A stretch of 43,683 nucleotides of DNA from IMG/VR virus record IMGVR_UViG_3300043478_000025, one strand, 5' to 3'. Of the stretch, positions 3,325-17,510 are shown piece after piece. Position 1 is the first letter of the stretch; every line of letters begins with the position of its first letter. The DNA comes from a virus. The position numbers were made by a program, and so were the translations under genes. Under the pieces are notes generated by a model, which was not told the origin of the DNA, made no database searches, and saw only the letters and a list, made by a program, of their open reading frames with translations.

Positions 3325-3762
3325 TCACCATATGATTTTCGTTTCTGGATCTACGCCTTGATGAATTGCATAAACTGCGTGAACATAGGCGTCGGTCCAA
3401 TGAGTAGGAGTGCCCTTGTACTTAGCCATTTTATACCCAGCAGGTTTGATCATCGGTTGTTGCACCGTGAAATGCCAGCCCAGGTCATAGGCTTTTCCGT
3501 AGCAGACCCCAATTTGCTTAGTAACAGGTGTAGGAGTCCATTCGGCTGACTTACGAAGGATGAAGTCTTCACAGACCACGATTACGTTCTCAGGGGAGAA
3601 TCCTGTTAGATCGTAGGCTTTGGAGTCCCAACCTTTGACCCATGCCATGAAGTCCGGCCAGGGAACGTTGCCGAAGTCGTGTAGGATCATTTGCCTGTCT
3701 CGCCAGCTAACCCAGGCATAGCCTGTAGTCTTACCTGGGTCGATCCCGAGGTAGAGTGTCAT
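3325..3762 (-). CDS. ruvC: RuvC-like Holliday-junction resolvase
   Basis: N-terminal LGIDPGKTTGYA (catalytic Asp motif), VVCEDFILR (Glu), and C-terminal HWTDAYVHAVYA (His/Asp). Size of 145 aa is typical. Confidence 0.75.
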   Translation of the reverse strand: MTLYLGIDPGKTTGYAWVSWRDRQMILHDFGNVPWPDFMAWVKGWDSKAYDLTGFSPENVIVVCEDFILRKSAEWTPTPVTKQIGVCYGKAYDLGWHFTVQQPMIKPAGYKMAKYKGTPTHWTDAYVHAVYAIHQGVDPETKIIW

Positions 3763-4094
3763 CCAGATTCCTTGTTCTCAAGTAGTCGTTGTAGTTCTTG
3801 TTGCACTATCACAGGGAATTCTTCCCTTACTCGTTTTCGTTGGTCAGCGGTCAAGCCGCCGAATACTCCTACAGGGACATCTATGTTCTGCGATAAACAT
3901 CGCCATCGGACAGGACAGACTTCCCGACACACCGTTGTGGCGATGAAGATGTCCGCAGGTTTGTTACTGAACCAGATGTCAGTCGGTCTGCTTACACACG
4001 CACCCATTCTCTCCCAGGTAGGACGATTAAAGATGTTGGCGAACGCACTTAGATCGACTGATCTGTTTTCAGGCTGGATGCCAGGATCCGTCAT
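3759..4094 (-). CDS. whiB: WhiB-like Fe-S transcription factor
   Basis: Four Cys arranged C-x22-C-x3-C-x5-C (GACVS ... TVCREVCPVRWRC), followed by a GVFGGLT turn and a basic tail (DQRKRVRE). Confidence 0.8.
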   Translation of the reverse strand: MTDPGIQPENRSVDLSAFANIFNRPTWERMGACVSRPTDIWFSNKPADIFIATTVCREVCPVRWRCLSQNIDVPVGVFGGLTADQRKRVREEFPVIVQQELQRLLENKESG

Positions 4095-6182: not shown

Positions 6183-7923
6183 CGCTGCCCTTTAGATCTT
6201 CCTCGTTTAGTTCGCCGGTCATTTGTAGTGCAGGCTTCGCAGCCTCTGGTTCTCTAGCAGAAGTCTTTTCAAACCAATGGTCTGTGTTCCTGTTCAGGAA
6301 CAGCGTGCTGGTTCCACTGAGGAACCTAGTCTTCACACCATCGAATTCTACACCGCTTTTGGAACGCTGCATGATAAACACGGTATTGGCACGATCACCG
6401 AAGACACGGCTGCCGTAAGCGTCGTCTATGGTGAACCTGTAGTTCTTGACTCCGGCAGGTACCTTCCTCGGGTGTGCAATTACGATGCACCATATTCCGA
6501 GTTGTTGTCGGAGTCTGTCAATCCAGTCGGCAATCTTTCTTGCACCAGTCTCATCCTGTAGGCTTGTCTTAGTCGAAGCCCCAAGAGTGTCCAAGATAAA
6601 GCCGGAGAAGCCACCGTCTCGAAGTCGTTTCTCGTATGCCTTCTGGTTTCGTTCATCGTCAAGAGCTACAGCCTGTCCGGTTGCACGAGTCTGGAAGTAT
6701 TCTTCTAGGTGCTCAAGCTCATCAGTCGTCATGTTGTTCGACATTGGTAAGAGGAACTCTGTAAGCTCAGCGCTGTTCATTTCATGGCTGGCTACGTAGA
6801 TTTTCTCTGCTCGCTCTCGCTGTTCAATCTCGAACCCTAACCACGACTTCTTGCTTAATGCGATCGTGATTCCGAGGTTGAACGCCAGGGTTGTCTTGCC
6901 GATCCCTGTAGGTCCAACGAGATACATCAAACCTTTGTTGCCGAGAACTCCTGGGATGATCCATTCGATTCGTGGACTCTTTGTGATCAGAGTCTTGAAA
7001 CCTACAGCCTCATTCCAATTGATGTCGTCGTCAGCAACTGGCGGTGGTTCGTCGGTAACGATTCTGATGGGCGGGGTCGTCTTCTCTTGAGCCCGGTGTA
7101 GGATAGTATCTAGTTGTTCGTTCCTGTCGGAACGGTTGTCGAATTTGCCCCATTTCTTGGCAGCTTCATCGACGATGTGTCGTGCTTCTTCTAGTGCGAA
7201 CTCTTCTTCGAGTAACCTACACGCTAGCTCGAACAGCTTGTCGGAACGGGTTCCTTCGGATGGCTTGGAGTTGTAGAGCTTCTTCGTGTACTCCGTTAAC
7301 TCTTCCCACCGTTGGATCGAAACCTCTTCCATGCCGAGTTTCGGCGTGAGAAGGTTCATCTGAGGAAGCCTGAACTCTGTCAGATCGAAGACTGTACCGT
7401 GGTTCTCTAGGAGAGAGACTGGTTTCGGTGGAGTGTGTTTGTGGTTGAAAGTACCGGGGATCCGGAGTAATTGTGTAGGATCATGTCCGGACTTATCTGC
7501 ACCAGGAACTGCGTTTCCAAAGAAACGGTTCGTCTCTAAAAGTGCCTCACGCCCAAGCCACGCCTCAGATCGTCGGTACTGGTGGACCCTACCGACGGAG
7601 CCCGAGGCGACCAGGAGGCCGGCAGGCGGGCAGCTAGGGCCGTCTCGTGGCACGTCCGTTGGCAGGTCGTCCACATCGGCCCAGCTAACCCAGCTACCTA
7701 GACAAAATTCCATCCGGCGTCTTTGGACGTGAAAGAGCGCAGGAGTGAAATAGACATCACCCTGCGCTCCTAGTTGTTGAACTTTGTTTTCCGAGACCCG
7801 AGAGATTCCATCGGGTACTTTGATGAACCATTCCTTTGCTGGCTTTCCACCTTTGAAGAGTGAAAGCGCAAAGTAACCCTCTTGGTCGCCACCGAAGACG
7901 TAGTCGAAGAACTCATTGAGCAT
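6166..7923 (-). CDS. Bifunctional primase-polymerase (AEP) fused to a RecA/DnaB-type helicase/ATPase
   Basis: N-terminal AEP motifs: WADVDD (DxD), GSVGRVHQY (sGxGxH), LLRIPGTFNHKH. C-terminal Walker A VGPTGIGKTTLA, Walker B FILDTLG, and IVIAHPRK. Confidence 0.8.
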   Translation of the reverse strand: MLNEFFDYVFGGDQEGYFALSLFKGGKPAKEWFIKVPDGISRVSENKVQQLGAQGDVYFTPALFHVQRRRMEFCLGSWVSWADVDDLPTDVPRDGPSCPPAGLLVASGSVGRVHQYRRSEAWLGREALLETNRFFGNAVPGADKSGHDPTQLLRIPGTFNHKHTPPKPVSLLENHGTVFDLTEFRLPQMNLLTPKLGMEEVSIQRWEELTEYTKKLYNSKPSEGTRSDKLFELACRLLEEEFALEEARHIVDEAAKKWGKFDNRSDRNEQLDTILHRAQEKTTPPIRIVTDEPPPVADDDINWNEAVGFKTLITKSPRIEWIIPGVLGNKGLMYLVGPTGIGKTTLAFNLGITIALSKKSWLGFEIEQRERAEKIYVASHEMNSAELTEFLLPMSNNMTTDELEHLEEYFQTRATGQAVALDDERNQKAYEKRLRDGGFSGFILDTLGASTKTSLQDETGARKIADWIDRLRQQLGIWCIVIAHPRKVPAGVKNYRFTIDDAYGSRVFGDRANTVFIMQRSKSGVEFDGVKTRFLSGTSTLFLNRNTDHWFEKTSAREPEAAKPALQMTGELNEEDLKGSDDIDL

Positions 7924-11486: not shown

Positions 11487-11920
11487 TTCTTACCGCCGAT
11501 GTTAGCCTGCCGCTGTTCAGCGGAGGACTTGCCTTCATCGGAAGTTTCGTCGTTCTTACGTCGAGCGTTCGCCATCTGCTCTGTAGGTGTAGGTGAAGGC
11601 TCAGGAAGATTCGACGGGAGTCGAGCGTTACCAGAACGCTGTTGAAGCGATTCGTCCAAATAGACAGAAGCTTGTGTCTTTGCGTACTCGGCGAAATCCG
11701 CCGCTGGCTTCGGCTGTTCGTATCCCATATCCAAGAAAGCCTGGAGCAATTCGAGAGCTACAGCCCGAGCGCTTTCAACGGAACGAACATCGTTGCCGAG
11801 GAAGAAGGGACCTACACGCTGCAAAGCGAGAGCGAGAAGATCGACGTCCTTATCTTCCCAAGGAACCTCTTCGACTTCTGGTTCCTCGGTAGGAGTTTCC
11901 TTGGTAACTGTATCAGGCAT
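11483..11920 (-). CDS. Hypothetical protein (145 aa), paralogous domain shared with 10498..11220
   Basis: ORF-track ORF preceded by AAAGAGAAAGGCAACCGCC before the ATG. Shared domain as described for 10498..11220. Confidence 0.65.
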   Translation of the reverse strand: MPDTVTKETPTEEPEVEEVPWEDKDVDLLALALQRVGPFFLGNDVRSVESARAVALELLQAFLDMGYEQPKPAADFAEYAKTQASVYLDESLQQRSGNARLPSNLPEPSPTPTEQMANARRKNDETSDEGKSSAEQRQANIGGKK

Positions 11921-11953
11921 GGCGGTTGCCTTTCTCTTTATTGTTCGATTATG

Positions 11954-12043
11954 CCGGGGAACTGGACCACCTTTGGGAGTATGAGCACAGTTCCCCGGCT
12001 GCCTAATCTACACGGTGGGTGGAATCACCGTTGACTGTAGATT
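11954..12043 (-). repeat. Two tandem long hairpins in the leader of gene 11483..11920
   Basis: Perfect 11-bp arms ccggggaactg (11954-11964) / cagttccccgg (11988-11998). An 8-bp pair aatctaca (12005-12012) / tgtagatt (12036-12043) encloses an inner cggtg/caccg stem. The second hairpin belongs to the CTACA family. Confidence 0.7.
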
Positions 12044-12049
12044 GGCAAG

Positions 12050-12089
12050 TGGTCGATGCTGGAATCGAACCAGCTATTCCTTTTCGACC
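12050..12089 (-). ncRNA. tRNA-like acceptor/T-arm mimic 1 (no D or anticodon arm)
   Basis: Minus-strand sense: GGTCGAA-AAGGAATA-GCTGG-TTCGATT-CCAGC-ATCGACC-A. It has a canonical T-loop, a 5-bp T-stem, a 6-bp acceptor-like stem and discriminator A. It overlaps the stop of CDS 12074..12280. Confidence 0.4.
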
Positions 12090-12280
12090 TGACGTTTCGC
12101 TTCTTGTTGTTTTCTACTCCACGGGAGTAGGTCTTCTAGTGGAAGAACTCCCACCATTATCATGCCTAAGATGATTGACTTAATCGGTACTGACTCTTCG
12201 TAGAGAGCCTCGATGATTATCAAGACCCCTAGGATGAAGATTGTTATTCTGCGTACGGCGTCAAAGAAAGCTGTAAACAT
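12074..12280 (-). CDS. Small membrane protein (68 aa, two predicted TM segments)
   Basis: Hydrophobic segments ITIFILGVLIIIEAL and IILGMIMVGVLPL, with a basic C-tail. RBS GAGGACGGGT lies before the ATG at 12280. Confidence 0.65.
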   Translation of the reverse strand: MFTAFFDAVRRITIFILGVLIIIEALYEESVPIKSIILGMIMVGVLPLEDLLPWSRKQQEAKRQVEKE

Positions 12281-12310
12281 ACCCGTCCTCGTTCGGGAAG
12301 GGTGGTGTAG

Positions 12311-12396
12311 TGGCCCGAGCTAGAATCGAACTAGCTGCACAAGAAGAACTCCGGGAGAGACAGAGACCATTGTTTTCTTGGCGCTCCTGCCGAGCC
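12311..12396 (-). ncRNA. tRNA-like element 2 (86 nt: acceptor stem plus canonical T-arm, non-canonical core)
   Basis: Sense: GGCTCGG ... GCTAG-TTCGATT-CTAGC-TCGGGCC-A. 7-bp acceptor stem (two G.U) and a T-arm identical to element 1 except for one compensatory pair (G-C to A-U). In the interior I could fold only a 9-bp CAAGAAAAC/GTTCTTCTTG stem, not a cloverleaf. Confidence 0.4.
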
Positions 12397-12435
12397 ATGA
12401 TGGCAGTTTAAAGACATGCCCAGGTCTTAGTTCAC

Positions 12436-13347
12436 TCAGGAATCGTCGTCGTCGAACAACTCCGTCACGTTGTCGTCGGAATCCGCCTCGAAGTCTGCCG
12501 GATCGTCGTCCGACAAATCGAGAGTCAGTTCGTTGATGTCTTCCGTGGACTCGTCGTCGTCATCGGAAGTTTCGTCCGTCATCTTGTTGGCGACGATCTT
12601 GTGACCGGAAACCGTGAACTCGAAACGGTCCGGGGGATTGGCCCGATCGAAGTTCGGGTTCTGCTCTTCGATCGCCTTCCAGAGTTCACCGACGTTCTTG
12701 ACGAACTTCTTCAGGTGGGTCTGAACCGCCGAGAGCTTTCGCTCGGTGATCGCCGTTTCGGTTCCCTCGGGATCGGTCACCGTGAACTGGAAAGTACCGC
12801 CGAGACGCTTTCCGGTCTTCGCACGATCCCCGACAGCACCACGGAGGTTGTCGATCTTCTCCTTGCCGAGAATCGAAACACCCACGGCCTTGAACCAATC
12901 CGGATCGGTTCCTTCCAGAAGGTTCCGGATGCCGTTCATGTTGTCGACGTGAATCTTGCGTTCCTTTCGGAACTCGACAAGCTCGGCTTCCTTCGGCTTG
13001 TCGGACTCATCGACCTTCGTGATGTTCGCATCGACGAACGTGTCGAGACGCTTGTCGTACTCCTTGAGAACCCGACGGACCGTTTCGTACAGTCCGGCGA
13101 ACTGCTCGTCCGACAAACCTTCCGCCGAAAGTGCGTTTCGGATGGAAGTGGCCACCGGGTTGTTGGCCTTCTTGTCGGTCATGTCGGGGTTGGCAGCCTC
13201 GAACCGAGTGTTGAGAAGCTTCGTGCGACCGAAACTCTCCAACGCCATTTTCTCGTCGAGGGTGTCGACCAGTTCCTTGGAAGCCAGCCACTTCTCGACC
13301 AGAGTGACGGTGAACGGGTTTTCCGTTCCGATGTTGACATCAGACAT
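12436..13347 (-). CDS. Abundant-looking early protein (303 aa) with a ~50-aa poly-acidic C-terminal tail
   Basis: Strong G/C-ending codon bias generates long shadow ORFs in other frames (e.g. 12601..13506). Tail: TDETSDDDDESTEDINELTLDLSDDDPADFEADSDDNVTELFDDDDS. No TGTAG/CTACA in the whole gene. Confidence 0.75.
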   Translation of the reverse strand: MSDVNIGTENPFTVTLVEKWLASKELVDTLDEKMALESFGRTKLLNTRFEAANPDMTDKKANNPVATSIRNALSAEGLSDEQFAGLYETVRRVLKEYDKRLDTFVDANITKVDESDKPKEAELVEFRKERKIHVDNMNGIRNLLEGTDPDWFKAVGVSILGKEKIDNLRGAVGDRAKTGKRLGGTFQFTVTDPEGTETAITERKLSAVQTHLKKFVKNVGELWKAIEEQNPNFDRANPPDRFEFTVSGHKIVANKMTDETSDDDDESTEDINELTLDLSDDDPADFEADSDDNVTELFDDDDS

Positions 13348-17268: not shown

Positions 17269-17510
17269 TAGGACAGCTCCCTCATCACAGTCACGATGCG
17301 GTTCTCACAGTCGGCTAGTTCGGTGAGAATGTTCTTCTGGATGATCCGAAGAAGCGAGAGTTCGTAGTTCTTGGCCGAACGGCGAGTTGCGAACAGAACG
17401 CAGCACTTGCACTTCATTCGACCTAGTTCGATGAAGCTGCCGGAATCGAACTCCGTGAACTGCGGAGGACCGTCGTAGATCCCATCGCTCACTTTGTAGT
17501 ACGTGGTCAT
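17268..17510 (-). CDS. Hypothetical protein (80 aa)
   Basis: ORF-track ORF with RBS AAGGAGAAACGA before the ATG. First gene after hairpin 17537-17562. Confidence 0.65.
   Translation of the reverse strand: MTTYYKVSDGIYDGPPQFTEFDSGSFIELGRMKCKCCVLFATRRSAKNYELSLLRIIQKNILTELADCENRIVTVMRELS

What the first reader, a model, noticed from the sequence alone, without database searches (positions are those of the whole stretch)
12050..12396. Two tRNA-like acceptor/T-arm mimics with a compensatory stem substitution bracket a small membrane-protein gene
Both elements lie on the minus strand and carry the canonical T-loop TTCGATT in a 5-bp stem.
- The stems are GCTGG/CCAGC at 12058-12074 and GCTAG/CTAGC at 12319-12335. 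The single difference is a compensatory G-C to A-U pair.
- Each is followed by a 7-nt acceptor-3' strand, discriminator A and CCACT-like sequence.
- Each has an upstream complement that forms a 6-7-bp acceptor stem: GGTCGAA at 12083-12089 and GGCTCGG at 12390-12396.
- Neither folds into a cloverleaf. Element 1 has only an 8-nt linker in place of the D and anticodon arms. Element 2 (86 nt) has one long irregular arm.
- Together they flank the 68-aa two-TM gene 12074..12280, and element 1 overlaps its stop codon.

Possible roles: RNase P/RNase Z or CCA-adding-enzyme substrates that excise or stabilise this mRNA, tRNA mimicry that targets a host factor, or remnants of tRNA-3'-end attachment cores. 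No integrase is present. An exact GGTTCGATTCC 11-mer is unlikely by chance, and two such arms 260 bp apart even less so.
Basis: partly seen in the sequence, partly recalled or inferred. Interest (0 to 1): 0.8.

Follow-up and report, generated by a model that had tools for sequence, protein, structure and literature searches.

The report
Phage tRNA-like RNA gene family
An uncultured soil phage of actinobacteria carries an 86-base gene for a tRNA-shaped RNA that cannot decode, kept by compensatory mutations in its relatives, plus a shortened second copy; both are most likely cut sites for the host's tRNA-trimming enzymes, and the longer one probably also yields a stable small RNA whose role is unknown.

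Summary
Both elements exist as described, on the minus (coding) strand. Element 2 (12311-12396) belongs to a conserved structured-RNA family. Nine distinct homologues sit downstream of the same 303-aa gene in related metagenomic phages. They share:
- an acceptor stem and a T arm with a canonical UUCGAYU loop;
- a short GG-containing linker in place of a D arm;
- a long covarying hairpin capped by an invariant CUGUCUC loop.

Of 22 modelled pairs, 15 show double-sided changes and 96% of cells pair; 12 G-U against 1 A-C cells fix the strand. ARAGORN and Rfam do not call it a tRNA or tmRNA.

Element 1 (12050-12089) is the same element with the long arm exactly removed. It is unchanged in a strain that is about 9% diverged around it.

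Relatives carry one element, not two, so the "bracketing" is particular to this genome. No integrase was found, and the 5' halves covary, so these are not attP relics.

Best reading: a tRNA-derived, non-decoding RNA processed by RNase P, 3' tRNA-end enzymes and the CCA-adding enzyme, punctuating the early operon. The function of the conserved arm is unknown. Cultured Arthrobacter phages (Azeevirinae) carry an unannotated element of the same blueprint, which makes this testable.

The parts
12311..12396 (-). Element 2: complete tRNA-like RNA gene, 86 nt from G1 to the discriminator A73; no CCA encoded
   Evidence: Sequence. CM hit of 81.9 bits. Nine distinct homologues; 96.3% of cells paired and 15 of 22 pairs with double-sided change.
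12390..12396 (-). Element 2, acceptor 5' strand GGCUCGG
   Evidence: Pairs with 12312-12318. Compensatory changes in L016, L019, L012 and L013.
12383..12389 (-). Element 2, linker CAGGAGC with a GG doublet, in the place of the D arm
   Evidence: A GG doublet is present in all nine homologues. No D stem.
12337..12382 (-). Element 2, long arm: base GCC/G-U-GC, covarying helix, internal loop, apical stem-loop
   Evidence: Helix 2: 7 of 8 pairs have double-sided change.
12357..12363 (-). Invariant apical-loop motif CUGUCUC
   Evidence: Identical in 8 of 9 homologues; L011 has CUGUUAUC.
12319..12335 (-). Element 2, T arm GCUAG-UUCGAUU-CUAGC
   Evidence: 4 of 5 pairs covary; G53-C61 is invariant.
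12311..12318 (-). Element 2, acceptor 3' strand UCGGGCC plus discriminator A
   Evidence: The discriminator varies (A, C or G) among homologues. The next base is always C.
12050..12089 (-). Element 1: the same element lacking the long arm (acceptor 5' strand, AAGGAAUA linker, T arm, acceptor 3' strand, A73)
   Evidence: CM hit of 30.5 bits with 41 model positions replaced by 0 nt. No substitutions in strain L025, against about 9% in the flanks.
12074..12280 (-). 68-aa small membrane-protein ORF (ORF-B family); its last 16 nt, including the stop codon, lie inside element 1
   Evidence: Homologous ORFs in L013, L011 and L016.
12402..12421 (-). Conserved hairpin GG(G)CA-UGUCUUUAAAC-UGCC(C), 5 nt upstream of element 2
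   Evidence: Compensatory C-G to U-A change in L016 and a U.G pair in L034. No substitutions in L025.
11953..12047 (-). Two strong hairpins immediately downstream of element 1
   Evidence: MFE -56.2 kcal/mol, z = -5.35. Counterparts in L014 and L016.
12436..13347 (-). 303-aa gene with an acidic C-terminal tail, function unknown; the element family always lies downstream of it
   Evidence: No Pfam, PHROG, PDB-sequence or fold match.

Best explanation
Element 2 is a gene for an RNA of about 86 nt that derives from a tRNA but no longer decodes.

What the RNA keeps and loses (shown):
- It keeps the tRNA 'top half': a coaxial acceptor/T-stem stack of about 12 bp, a canonical T loop, and a GG doublet that can form the elbow.
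- It has lost the D stem.
- In place of the anticodon arm it has a long hairpin with an invariant CUGUCUC loop.

How it most likely works (inferred, not shown):
- It is co-transcribed with the early/replication genes on the minus strand.
- Host RNase P cuts at its 5' end, leaving the upstream mRNA ending in a protective hairpin.
- Host 3' tRNA-end enzymes cut after the discriminator, and the CCA-adding enzyme completes the 3' end.
- The element therefore punctuates the operon and at the same time releases a stable tRNA-like small RNA. That RNA's conserved arm carries a further, still unknown, function.

Element 1 is a second copy that has lost exactly the long arm and is left as a minihelix. 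It most likely still works as a processing site at the 3' end of the 68-aa ORF. Cleavage there would remove that ORF's stop codon.
For: Shown:
1. The family is real. Nine distinct homologues lie downstream of the same gene. 96.3% of cells pair; 15 of 22 pairs have double-sided change; 0 of 500 shuffles reach this; slid controls pair at 18-51%.
2. The strand is fixed. There are 172 Watson-Crick, 12 G-U and 1 A-C cells, so it is the minus-strand RNA that folds.
3. The tRNA top half is what is kept. The T loop UUCGAYU and G53-C61 are invariant. Where the acceptor stem has 5 bp (L012, L015) the T stem has 7, so the sum stays at 12. Genuine tRNAs score 17-35 bits on the family model, while family members score 53-83 bits.
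4. It is not a decoding tRNA or a tmRNA. Relaxed ARAGORN gives inconsistent anticodons.
5. Element 1 is a precise deletion of the arm. It shows 0 substitutions in 40 nt in strain L025, against about 9% in the flanks, giving P about 0.03. Element 2, the hairpin and the stretches joining them out to 12473 show 0 in 171 nt.
6. Context fits punctuation. When the element directly follows the 303-aa gene, with no small ORF in between, it is preceded by a hairpin plus 4-7 nt that mostly end in CA(N).
7. Arthrobacter phages (Azeevirinae) have an unannotated element of the same blueprint. Their top half is conserved and the acceptor stem covaries, while the interior varies over roughly 25-100 nt.

By analogy: plant-mitochondrial t-elements, found through the same GGTTCRANYCC motif, direct RNase P/Z cleavage. 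They receive non-encoded C/A additions and even create 3' ends inside reading frames (PMC1920247).
Against: - No RNA data exist, so transcription, the cleavage sites and CCA addition are all inferred.
- A pure processing signal does not explain why the loop CUGUCUC and the arm base GCGCC/G-N-GC are invariant. They hold across phages whose neighbouring protein is only 53-77% identical.
- The close relative L016 has no element 1, and L014 carries a copy that has lost its 5' half. The second site is therefore dispensable in some lineages.
- The cultured capsid relatives Jasmine and Shocker have no such element.
- The hand alignment of the long arm was made with the structure in mind. The acceptor stem and T arm are aligned without gaps and do not depend on this.
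Confidence: 0.55

Rival explanations
1. It is a trans-acting tRNA mimic or decoy. The processed RNA soaks up or misdirects a host factor that recognises tRNA. Candidates are an anticodon nuclease, an acceptor-end nucleotidyltransferase toxin of the MenT/AbiE type, tRNA-guanine transglycosylase, or SmpB. The CUGUCUC loop would imitate an anticodon loop. This is compatible with the processing model as a way of making the RNA, but it places the function in the free RNA.
For: - The loop and the arm base are invariant although the helix between them covaries.
- CUGUCUC matches the tRNA-Asp anticodon loop CUGUCAC at 6 of 7 positions, as seen in annotated actinophage tRNA-Asp genes. L011 has CUGUUAU, which resembles the Asn loop.
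- The shared UGU is the motif recognised by TGT and by E5-type nucleases (own knowledge).
- The host is an actinobacterium (phage WhiB). That phylum is rich in tRNA-targeting toxins (PMC7450476, listed; own knowledge).
Against: - Comparison with 34 annotated actinophage tRNAs does not single out Asp.
- A 6-of-7 loop match is not rare by chance.
- The loop has 9-13 nt, not 7, and the arm is longer than an anticodon arm.
- The discriminator varies (A, C or G), and there is no G3:U70.
- In the Azeevirinae elements the interior is not conserved.
- Arm-less element 1 is conserved too.
Confidence: 0.25
2. It is a DNA-level element, either a replication origin or a recombination hotspot. The conserved sequence would act as DNA, or as a primer-forming transcript, within the replication module.
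For: - In both phage groups the element lies inside the replication module: next to exonuclease and annealing-protein genes here, and between primase/helicase and DNA Pol I in the Azeevirinae.
- Small ORFs have been shuffled around it.
Against: - 12 G-U cells against 1 A-C cell show selection on one strand as RNA.
- The conserved sequence is the canonical T loop. That points to tRNA-specific RNA recognition.
- No iterons or AT-rich stretch were noticed in the sequence around it, though no repeat search was run.
Confidence: 0.07
3. They are remnants of tRNA 3'-end attachment cores (attP or attL/attR) left over from an integrative past.
For: - T arm plus acceptor 3' strand is what attP cores usually contain.
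- Two copies flank a small insert-like ORF.
- A BLAST hit of the T-arm segment in Streptomyces phage Chymera lies next to a tyrosine integrase.
Against: - No integrase was found among the ORFs of about 200 aa or more that were scanned.
- The complete element, including the acceptor 5' strand and the arm, covaries.
- The two copies differ in sequence, so they are not a duplicated core.
- A pattern scan of 185,579 species genomes found no host copy.
Confidence: 0.03
4. It is an unusual but functional decoding tRNA, or a miniature tmRNA.
For: The acceptor stem, T arm and GG linker resemble the tRNA-like domain of tmRNA, which also lacks a D stem (own knowledge).
Against: - No ARAGORN or Rfam call.
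- Relaxed calls give inconsistent anticodons.
- No 5-bp stem with a 7-nt anticodon loop.
- Position 3:70 is C-G or U-A, not G-U.
- No tag reading frame.
Confidence: 0.03

Closest known systems
Plant-mitochondrial t-elements (tRNA-like processing signals; PMC1920247)
   Same: - A non-cloverleaf element that keeps an acceptor stem and a perfectly conserved T arm (GGTTCRANYCC).
- It sits between or inside mRNAs on the coding strand.
- Its ends are cut by RNase P and RNase Z, with non-encoded C/A additions.
- It can end an mRNA inside a reading frame, as element 1 would for the 68-aa ORF.
   Different: - Organellar, not viral.
- No conserved long arm with an invariant loop.
- Processing is shown experimentally there and only inferred here.
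mascRNA / MALAT1-type tRNA-like 3'-end elements (own knowledge)
   Same: A tRNA-like structure downstream of a longer transcript is cut by RNase P and RNase Z and receives CCA. This yields both a matured upstream RNA and a small stable tRNA-like RNA with a non-functional anticodon region.
   Different: - Eukaryotic nuclear RNAs.
- A cloverleaf with a D arm is retained.
- No sequence relationship.
tRNA-like domain of tmRNA, including the mitochondrial tag-less form (own knowledge)
   Same: Acceptor stem plus T arm; a D-loop analogue with GG but no D stem; a long helix takes the place of the anticodon stem.
   Different: - No G3:U70.
- No pseudoknots or tag ORF.
- Not found by ARAGORN or the Rfam tmRNA models.
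- Only 82-92 nt long.
Bacterial and phage Y RNAs (YrlA) with a tRNA-like module (PMC4201824, listed)
   Same: A non-coding RNA, also found in phages, that combines a tRNA-like T arm/D arm module with a long helix and is handled by tRNA enzymes.
   Different: - In YrlA the RNA termini lie in the long helix that binds the Ro protein, and the acceptor-like stem is closed (own knowledge). Here the long arm is closed and the acceptor stem is open.
- No rsr (Ro protein) gene was seen.
- No Rfam match.
Unannotated elements of Arthrobacter phages of the subfamily Azeevirinae (found here)
   Same: - Leader ending in CCA(A).
- Acceptor stem GGCCGG.../...CCGGCC with compensatory variants.
- Linker with GG.
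- Long arm that abuts the T arm.
- UUCGAYU T loop, A73 and C74.
- The same 5/7 versus 7/5 stem split in some members.
- Located in the replication module of actinophages.
   Different: - The interior is much more variable (roughly 25-100 nt) and is branched in some members.
- No GCGCC base.
- CUGUCUC occurs only in one prophage-like contig.
- Different neighbouring genes.
- They score only at generic-tRNA level on the family model (28 bits).

Membership tests
Canonical tRNA | Cloverleaf with a D arm and an anticodon arm of 5 bp plus a 7-nt loop; detected by ARAGORN and Rfam RF00005 | tested here: not met
   0 genes in the window and in 11 relatives' loci. No Rfam tRNA match up to E = 10 or E = 1. 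Relaxed ARAGORN gives Arg, Thr or undetermined, inconsistently.
Canonical tRNA | 7-bp acceptor stem stacked on a 5-bp T stem, with a UUCRANY T loop and G53-C61 | tested here: met
   Real tRNAs score 17-35 bits on the family model.
tmRNA | G3:U70 alanine identity pair | tested here: not met
   Pair 3:70 is C-G in 8 sequences and U-A in 1.
tmRNA | Tag reading frame and pseudoknots; detected by ARAGORN or Rfam | tested here: not met
   The elements are 82-92 nt long with one closed hairpin. No calls by either tool.
t-element / mascRNA-type processing signal | Non-canonical tRNA-like fold with an intact acceptor stem and T arm, on the transcribed strand between cistrons | tested here: met
   Strand fixed by 12 G-U against 1 A-C cells.
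t-element / mascRNA-type processing signal | RNA ends coincide with the element's ends (RNase P at G1; RNase Z after N73) | not testable with these tools
   Needs RNA-end mapping or in vitro cleavage.
t-element / mascRNA-type processing signal | Non-encoded CCA, or C/A additions, on the released element | not testable with these tools
   No CCA is encoded. N73 is always followed by C.
attP core derived from a host tRNA 3' end | An integrase encoded nearby | tested here: not met
   No integrase among the ORFs of about 200 aa or more scanned with Pfam or PHROGs. Contrast Chymera.
attP core derived from a host tRNA 3' end | Identity to the 3' end of a host tRNA gene, with only the 3' part present | tested here: inconclusive
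   The complete 5' halves are present and covary. A pattern scan of GTDB genomes gave no family member apart from one prophage-like contig. The pattern required the loop motif, so plain host tRNA 3' ends were not compared.
Y RNA (YrlA) | Termini in a Ro-binding helix, a closed acceptor-like stem, and an adjacent rsr gene | tested here: not met
   The topology is the reverse: the long arm is closed and the acceptor stem is open. No Rfam match.

The most novel reading that the evidence does not exclude
The RNA is an anti-defence decoy. It would be a tRNA reduced to the features that a host tRNA-targeting immune effector reads: the acceptor/T-arm elbow plus an anticodon-like CUGUCUC loop resembling that of tRNA-Asp. 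The host's own tRNA-maturation enzymes would produce it in quantity, and it would absorb or inhibit the effector. The arm-less minihelix (element 1) and the Azeevirinae elements would be variants tuned to effectors that attack the acceptor end.
Probability: 0.15. Interest if true: 0.85.

Novelty: new variant of a known kind. Interest (0 to 1): 0.62.

Why it matters
tRNA-like processing signals and tRNA mimics are known from organelles, eukaryotic nuclei, RNA viruses and bacterial Y RNAs. A covariation-supported family of D-stem-less tRNA derivatives with a dedicated long arm, embedded in the replication operons of DNA phages, is in neither Rfam 15 nor the literature searched here.

It would show that phages reuse the tRNA top half as a portable handle for host RNase P, RNase Z and the CCA-adding enzyme. 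That handle could set mRNA boundaries and could launch a stable small RNA.

The same blueprint turned up unannotated in more than twenty cultured Arthrobacter phages with a laboratory host. The idea can therefore be tested directly, and annotators of those genomes are currently missing a gene, or in one case calling it a tRNA.

Tried and rejected
Detectors and databases with no useful result:
- ARAGORN and Rfam on the window and on relatives: nothing.
- megablast and blastn of the region, and tblastn of the 303-aa protein, against 50,697 phage records: no homologue of element 2 or of the protein.
- IMG/VR protein and pattern scans: only the deleted variant L057, which equals L014.
- A relaxed pattern in JGI metagenomes gave only two true members among 29 hits. 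The rest were ordinary tRNAs or unrelated sequence.
- The same pattern in GTDB genomes gave no host copy.

Ideas tested and not supported:
- Antisense target of the loop: the complement GGAGACAG is not enriched in the window (46 matches with one mismatch against 46.9 expected).
- Promoter/terminator scan: nothing above background. The only minus-strand terminator-like match is the apical hairpin of the long arm itself.
- Function of the 303-aa neighbour: no Pfam, PHROG or PDB-sequence match. The AlphaFold model is mediocre (pLDDT 68.5, pTM 0.33) and has no fold match.
- Origin from tRNA-Asp: the loop and the GG-A-GCGC stretch resemble tRNA-Asp, but alignment against 34 annotated actinophage tRNAs does not rank Asp first. 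This is left as an unproven idea.
- Third GTTCGATTC at 17443-17451: it lies inside an ORF and has no T stem, so it is taken as chance.
- The cultured capsid relatives Jasmine and Shocker carry no element.

Full report
OBSERVATION

On the minus strand the window reads as follows.
- Element 2: GGCTCGG (12396-12390), 54 nt, GCTAG-TTCGATT-CTAGC (12335-12319), TCGGGCC (12318-12312), A, then CTAC.
- Element 1: GGTCGAA (12089-12083), AAGGAATA, GCTGG-TTCGATT-CCAGC (12074-12058), ATCGACC (12057-12051), A, then CTTG.

Between them lies a 68-aa ORF (12074-12280), whose stop codon is inside element 1. The only slip is that the 11-mer GGTTCGATTCC occurs in element 1 alone.

ARAGORN finds no tRNA or tmRNA. 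Rfam 15 gives nothing at gathering score, and no tRNA or tmRNA match up to E = 10. On its own, each element folds as predicted, but with modest z-scores (-2.5 and -1.2). The single sequence therefore proves little.

GENOME CONTEXT

The window is a complete-length (about 43.7 kb) metagenomic phage contig recovered repeatedly.
- The minus strand carries a replication module: SNF2-type helicase, PD-(D/E)XK exonuclease, Sak4-like ATPase, primase/helicase, family A DNA polymerase and a WhiB regulator.
- The plus strand carries terminase, portal, capsid and internal virion proteins.
- WhiB and the nearest capsids point to an actinobacterial host. Those capsids are 34-37% identical and come from phages of Microbacterium, Cellulosimicrobium and Arthrobacter.
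- No integrase, reverse transcriptase or tRNA enzyme was found among the ORFs scanned.

ELEMENT 2 BELONGS TO A CONSERVED RNA FAMILY

The 303-aa gene just upstream has 14 homologue clusters at 53-80% identity. Wherever enough downstream sequence was recovered, a homologous element lies within about 450 nt of its stop codon. These are L016, L008, L019, L012, L013, L015 and L011. A pattern scan of JGI metagenomes added L034 and a diverged strain of the window phage, L025.

The nine distinct sequences (82-92 nt) share one architecture:
- a 7-bp acceptor stem that starts with GG;
- a 7-9 nt linker that always contains GG, with no D stem;
- a long arm with a base GCC/G-N-GC (one bulged base), then a helix of 5-8 bp, an internal loop, a 2-4 bp apical stem, and a 9-13 nt loop ending in CUGUCUC;
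- zero to two bases, then a 5-bp T stem with the loop UUCGAYU;
- the acceptor 3' strand, a variable discriminator (A, C or G), and then always a C. No CCA is encoded.

On my alignment, 96.3% of pair cells are standard pairs and 15 of 22 pairs show changes on both sides. None of 500 shuffles reaches this, and sliding the partners by 1-3 columns drops pairing to 18-51%. MAFFT plus RNAalifold independently recovered the acceptor stem, the arm base and the T stem, with 9 of 16 predicted pairs compensatory.

Pair cells comprise 172 Watson-Crick, 12 G-U and 1 A-C. The folded molecule is therefore the minus-strand transcript, not DNA or the other strand.

In L012 and L015 the acceptor stem has 5 bp and the T stem 7. 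The 12-bp coaxial stack that tRNA-processing enzymes measure is thus preserved (own knowledge).

A covariance model separates three groups:
- family members at 53-83 bits, including L034, which was not used for training;
- genuine tRNAs at 17-35 bits;
- everything else in the window at no more than 9.4 bits.

ELEMENT 1

The model aligns element 1 end to end at 30.5 bits, with 41 model positions (essentially the whole long arm) replaced by nothing. The following are retained:
- the leader CA, the acceptor strand that starts with GG, and the AGG of the linker;
- the T arm and the acceptor 3' strand;
- the tail A-CUUGC, which also follows the elements of L013 and L019 (L012 has A-CUUGU).

Relatives show how such copies arise. 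L014 is L011 with a clean deletion of the 5' strand, linker and arm, and L016 has no downstream copy at all.

Element 1 is nevertheless not obviously decaying. In strain L025 there are 92 substitutions over about 990 nt. Element 1 has none in 40 nt, while its 100-nt flanks have 10 and 8, giving a Poisson P of about 0.03. The 171-nt stretch 12303-12473, which contains element 2 and the upstream hairpin, has none either.

THE "BRACKETING" IS PARTICULAR TO THIS GENOME

- In L012, L015, L013 and L011 the order is small ORF, then element.
- In L008, L019, L034 and L016 the order is element, then small ORF.
- Only the window lineage has both.

Two unrelated families of small membrane-protein ORFs occupy these slots. 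They look like cassettes shuffled around a fixed RNA gene.

Wherever ORF-B precedes an element (window element 1, L013, L011), its unconserved C-terminal tail and its stop codon run into the element's 5' part.

MECHANISM

What is conserved is the part of a tRNA that RNase P, RNase Z, the CCA-adding enzyme and the T-loop modification enzymes recognise. What is lost is the part needed for decoding.

When the element directly follows the 303-aa gene, with no small ORF in between, it is preceded by a hairpin plus 4-7 nt. In the window this hairpin spans 12402-12421 and has compensatory changes in L016 and L034. RNase P cleavage would therefore leave the upstream mRNA with a 3' hairpin.

I therefore propose that the element punctuates the early operon and is released as a stable tRNA-like RNA. 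The closest documented parallel is the plant-mitochondrial t-element. It was found through the same GGTTCRANYCC motif, is cut by RNase P and RNase Z, receives non-encoded C/A, and in two cases creates mRNA 3' ends inside the reading frame (PMC1920247).

All processing steps here are inferred. None is shown.

The invariant loop and arm base argue that the free RNA has a further function. The loop matches the tRNA-Asp anticodon loop at 6 of 7 positions, and the linker resembles the 3' side of a D arm. However, a comparison with 34 annotated actinophage tRNAs does not single out Asp, and the loop's complement is not enriched in the genome.

RIVALS

- A decoy for a tRNA-targeting host factor is the most interesting alternative and is compatible with the processing model.
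- A DNA-level origin function is disfavoured by the excess of G-U over A-C cells.
- The attP-relic idea fails, because complete elements covary and no integrase is present. A true attP hit (Chymera) shows what that looks like.
- A decoding tRNA or a tmRNA is excluded by the tests run.

A WIDER CLASS

The T-arm segment of L012 hit unannotated intergenic DNA in Arthrobacter phages of the subfamily Azeevirinae, and 26 records share this locus. I examined eleven phages and one Pseudarthrobacter genome contig carrying a similar phage-like region. Between primase/helicase and DNA polymerase I, each carries an element with these features:
- a leader ending in CCA(A);
- an acceptor stem GGCCGGU/ACCGGCC that covaries to GGGCGGC/GCCGCCC;
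- a GG linker;
- a long arm of roughly 25-100 nt that abuts the T arm;
- A73 and C74.

Only Tweety19's is annotated, as tRNA-Thr. ARAGORN at default settings finds nothing in MaGuCo, Liebe or Chymera.

Whether this is homology or convergence with the window family is unresolved. The interior is not conserved there, which favours a top-half-based function. The cultured capsid relatives Jasmine and Shocker lack any such element.

VERDICT

The pairing of the two elements and the attP option are not supported. The function of the conserved arm remains open.

Noticed in passing
window 12402-12421 (-); L016, L019, L034, L010/L011/L014: A conserved hairpin, GGGYA-loop(YG..N5-6..AAAC)-URCCC, lies just after the 303-aa gene. 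It shows a compensatory C-G to U-A change in L016 and a U.G pair in L034. In the L011 lineage it stays with the gene even though the tRNA-like element is about 430 nt further downstream.
   Followed up: partly
L008 ~3656-3680; L013 ~3982-4003; L012 ~3978-4002; L015, L018, L010/L011: A second conserved intergenic hairpin, with the loop c-A-N-A-CGUGA-N, is preceded by AGUCGMAAU. It is present in most relatives but was not seen at this spot in the window.
   Followed up: no
window 11953-12047 (-): Two very stable hairpins lie directly after element 1 (MFE -56 kcal/mol, z = -5.35), with counterparts in L014 and L016. In L012, L013 and L019 the element is likewise followed by CUUG(C/U) and a long hairpin. 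They could be terminators or RNase III sites.
   Followed up: partly
L058 (MaGuCo) 2382-2523; L060, L061-L069: Arthrobacter phages of the subfamily Azeevirinae carry an unannotated tRNA-like element of 68-142 nt between primase/helicase and DNA Pol I. It is followed by a conserved 5' UTR of polA (GUUUACACGACC..AGGAGG). Only Tweety19's is annotated, as tRNA-Thr.
   Followed up: partly
L055 (Pseudarthrobacter siccitolerans 4J27, NZ_CAQI01000028.1), reverse strand ~7560-7710: A bacterial genome contig holds an Azeevirinae-like phage region (primase/helicase, small gene, hairpin, tRNA-like element, start of polA). Its long arm ends in the hairpin CUGG-CUGUCUC-CCAG, the same 7-mer as in the window family. 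It was found through a pattern that required that motif.
   Followed up: partly
L014 (= L057) 1974-2017 versus L011 1870-1983: Two otherwise near-identical contigs differ by a clean deletion of about 95 nt. It removes the acceptor 5' strand, the linker and the long arm, and fuses the small ORF to the T arm.
   Followed up: yes
window 12436-13347 (-): The 303-aa protein has a strongly acidic C-terminal tail (ELFDDDDS) like single-stranded-DNA-binding proteins. It has no Pfam, PHROG, PDB-sequence or fold match. It is restricted to about 15 clusters in 5.8 billion proteins and is always followed by the RNA element.
   Followed up: partly
window 12074-12280 (-); L008 3788-3964; L012 3992-4150; L015; L019; L034: Two unrelated families of small membrane-protein ORFs take turns upstream or downstream of the RNA element. 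One is the two-TM ORF-B; the other is ORF-A, with a single TM followed by RRK. This suggests cassette shuffling at this locus.
   Followed up: partly
L025 versus window 11832-12820: A co-occurring strain is about 9% diverged overall and about 19% diverged within the 68-aa ORF, yet identical across both RNA elements and the hairpin between the 303-aa gene and element 2.
   Followed up: yes
L059 (Streptomyces phage Chymera) 2501-2528: A T arm/acceptor 3' fragment lies about 100 nt upstream of a tyrosine integrase. It is a textbook attP core and serves as a useful contrast to the window elements.
   Followed up: yes
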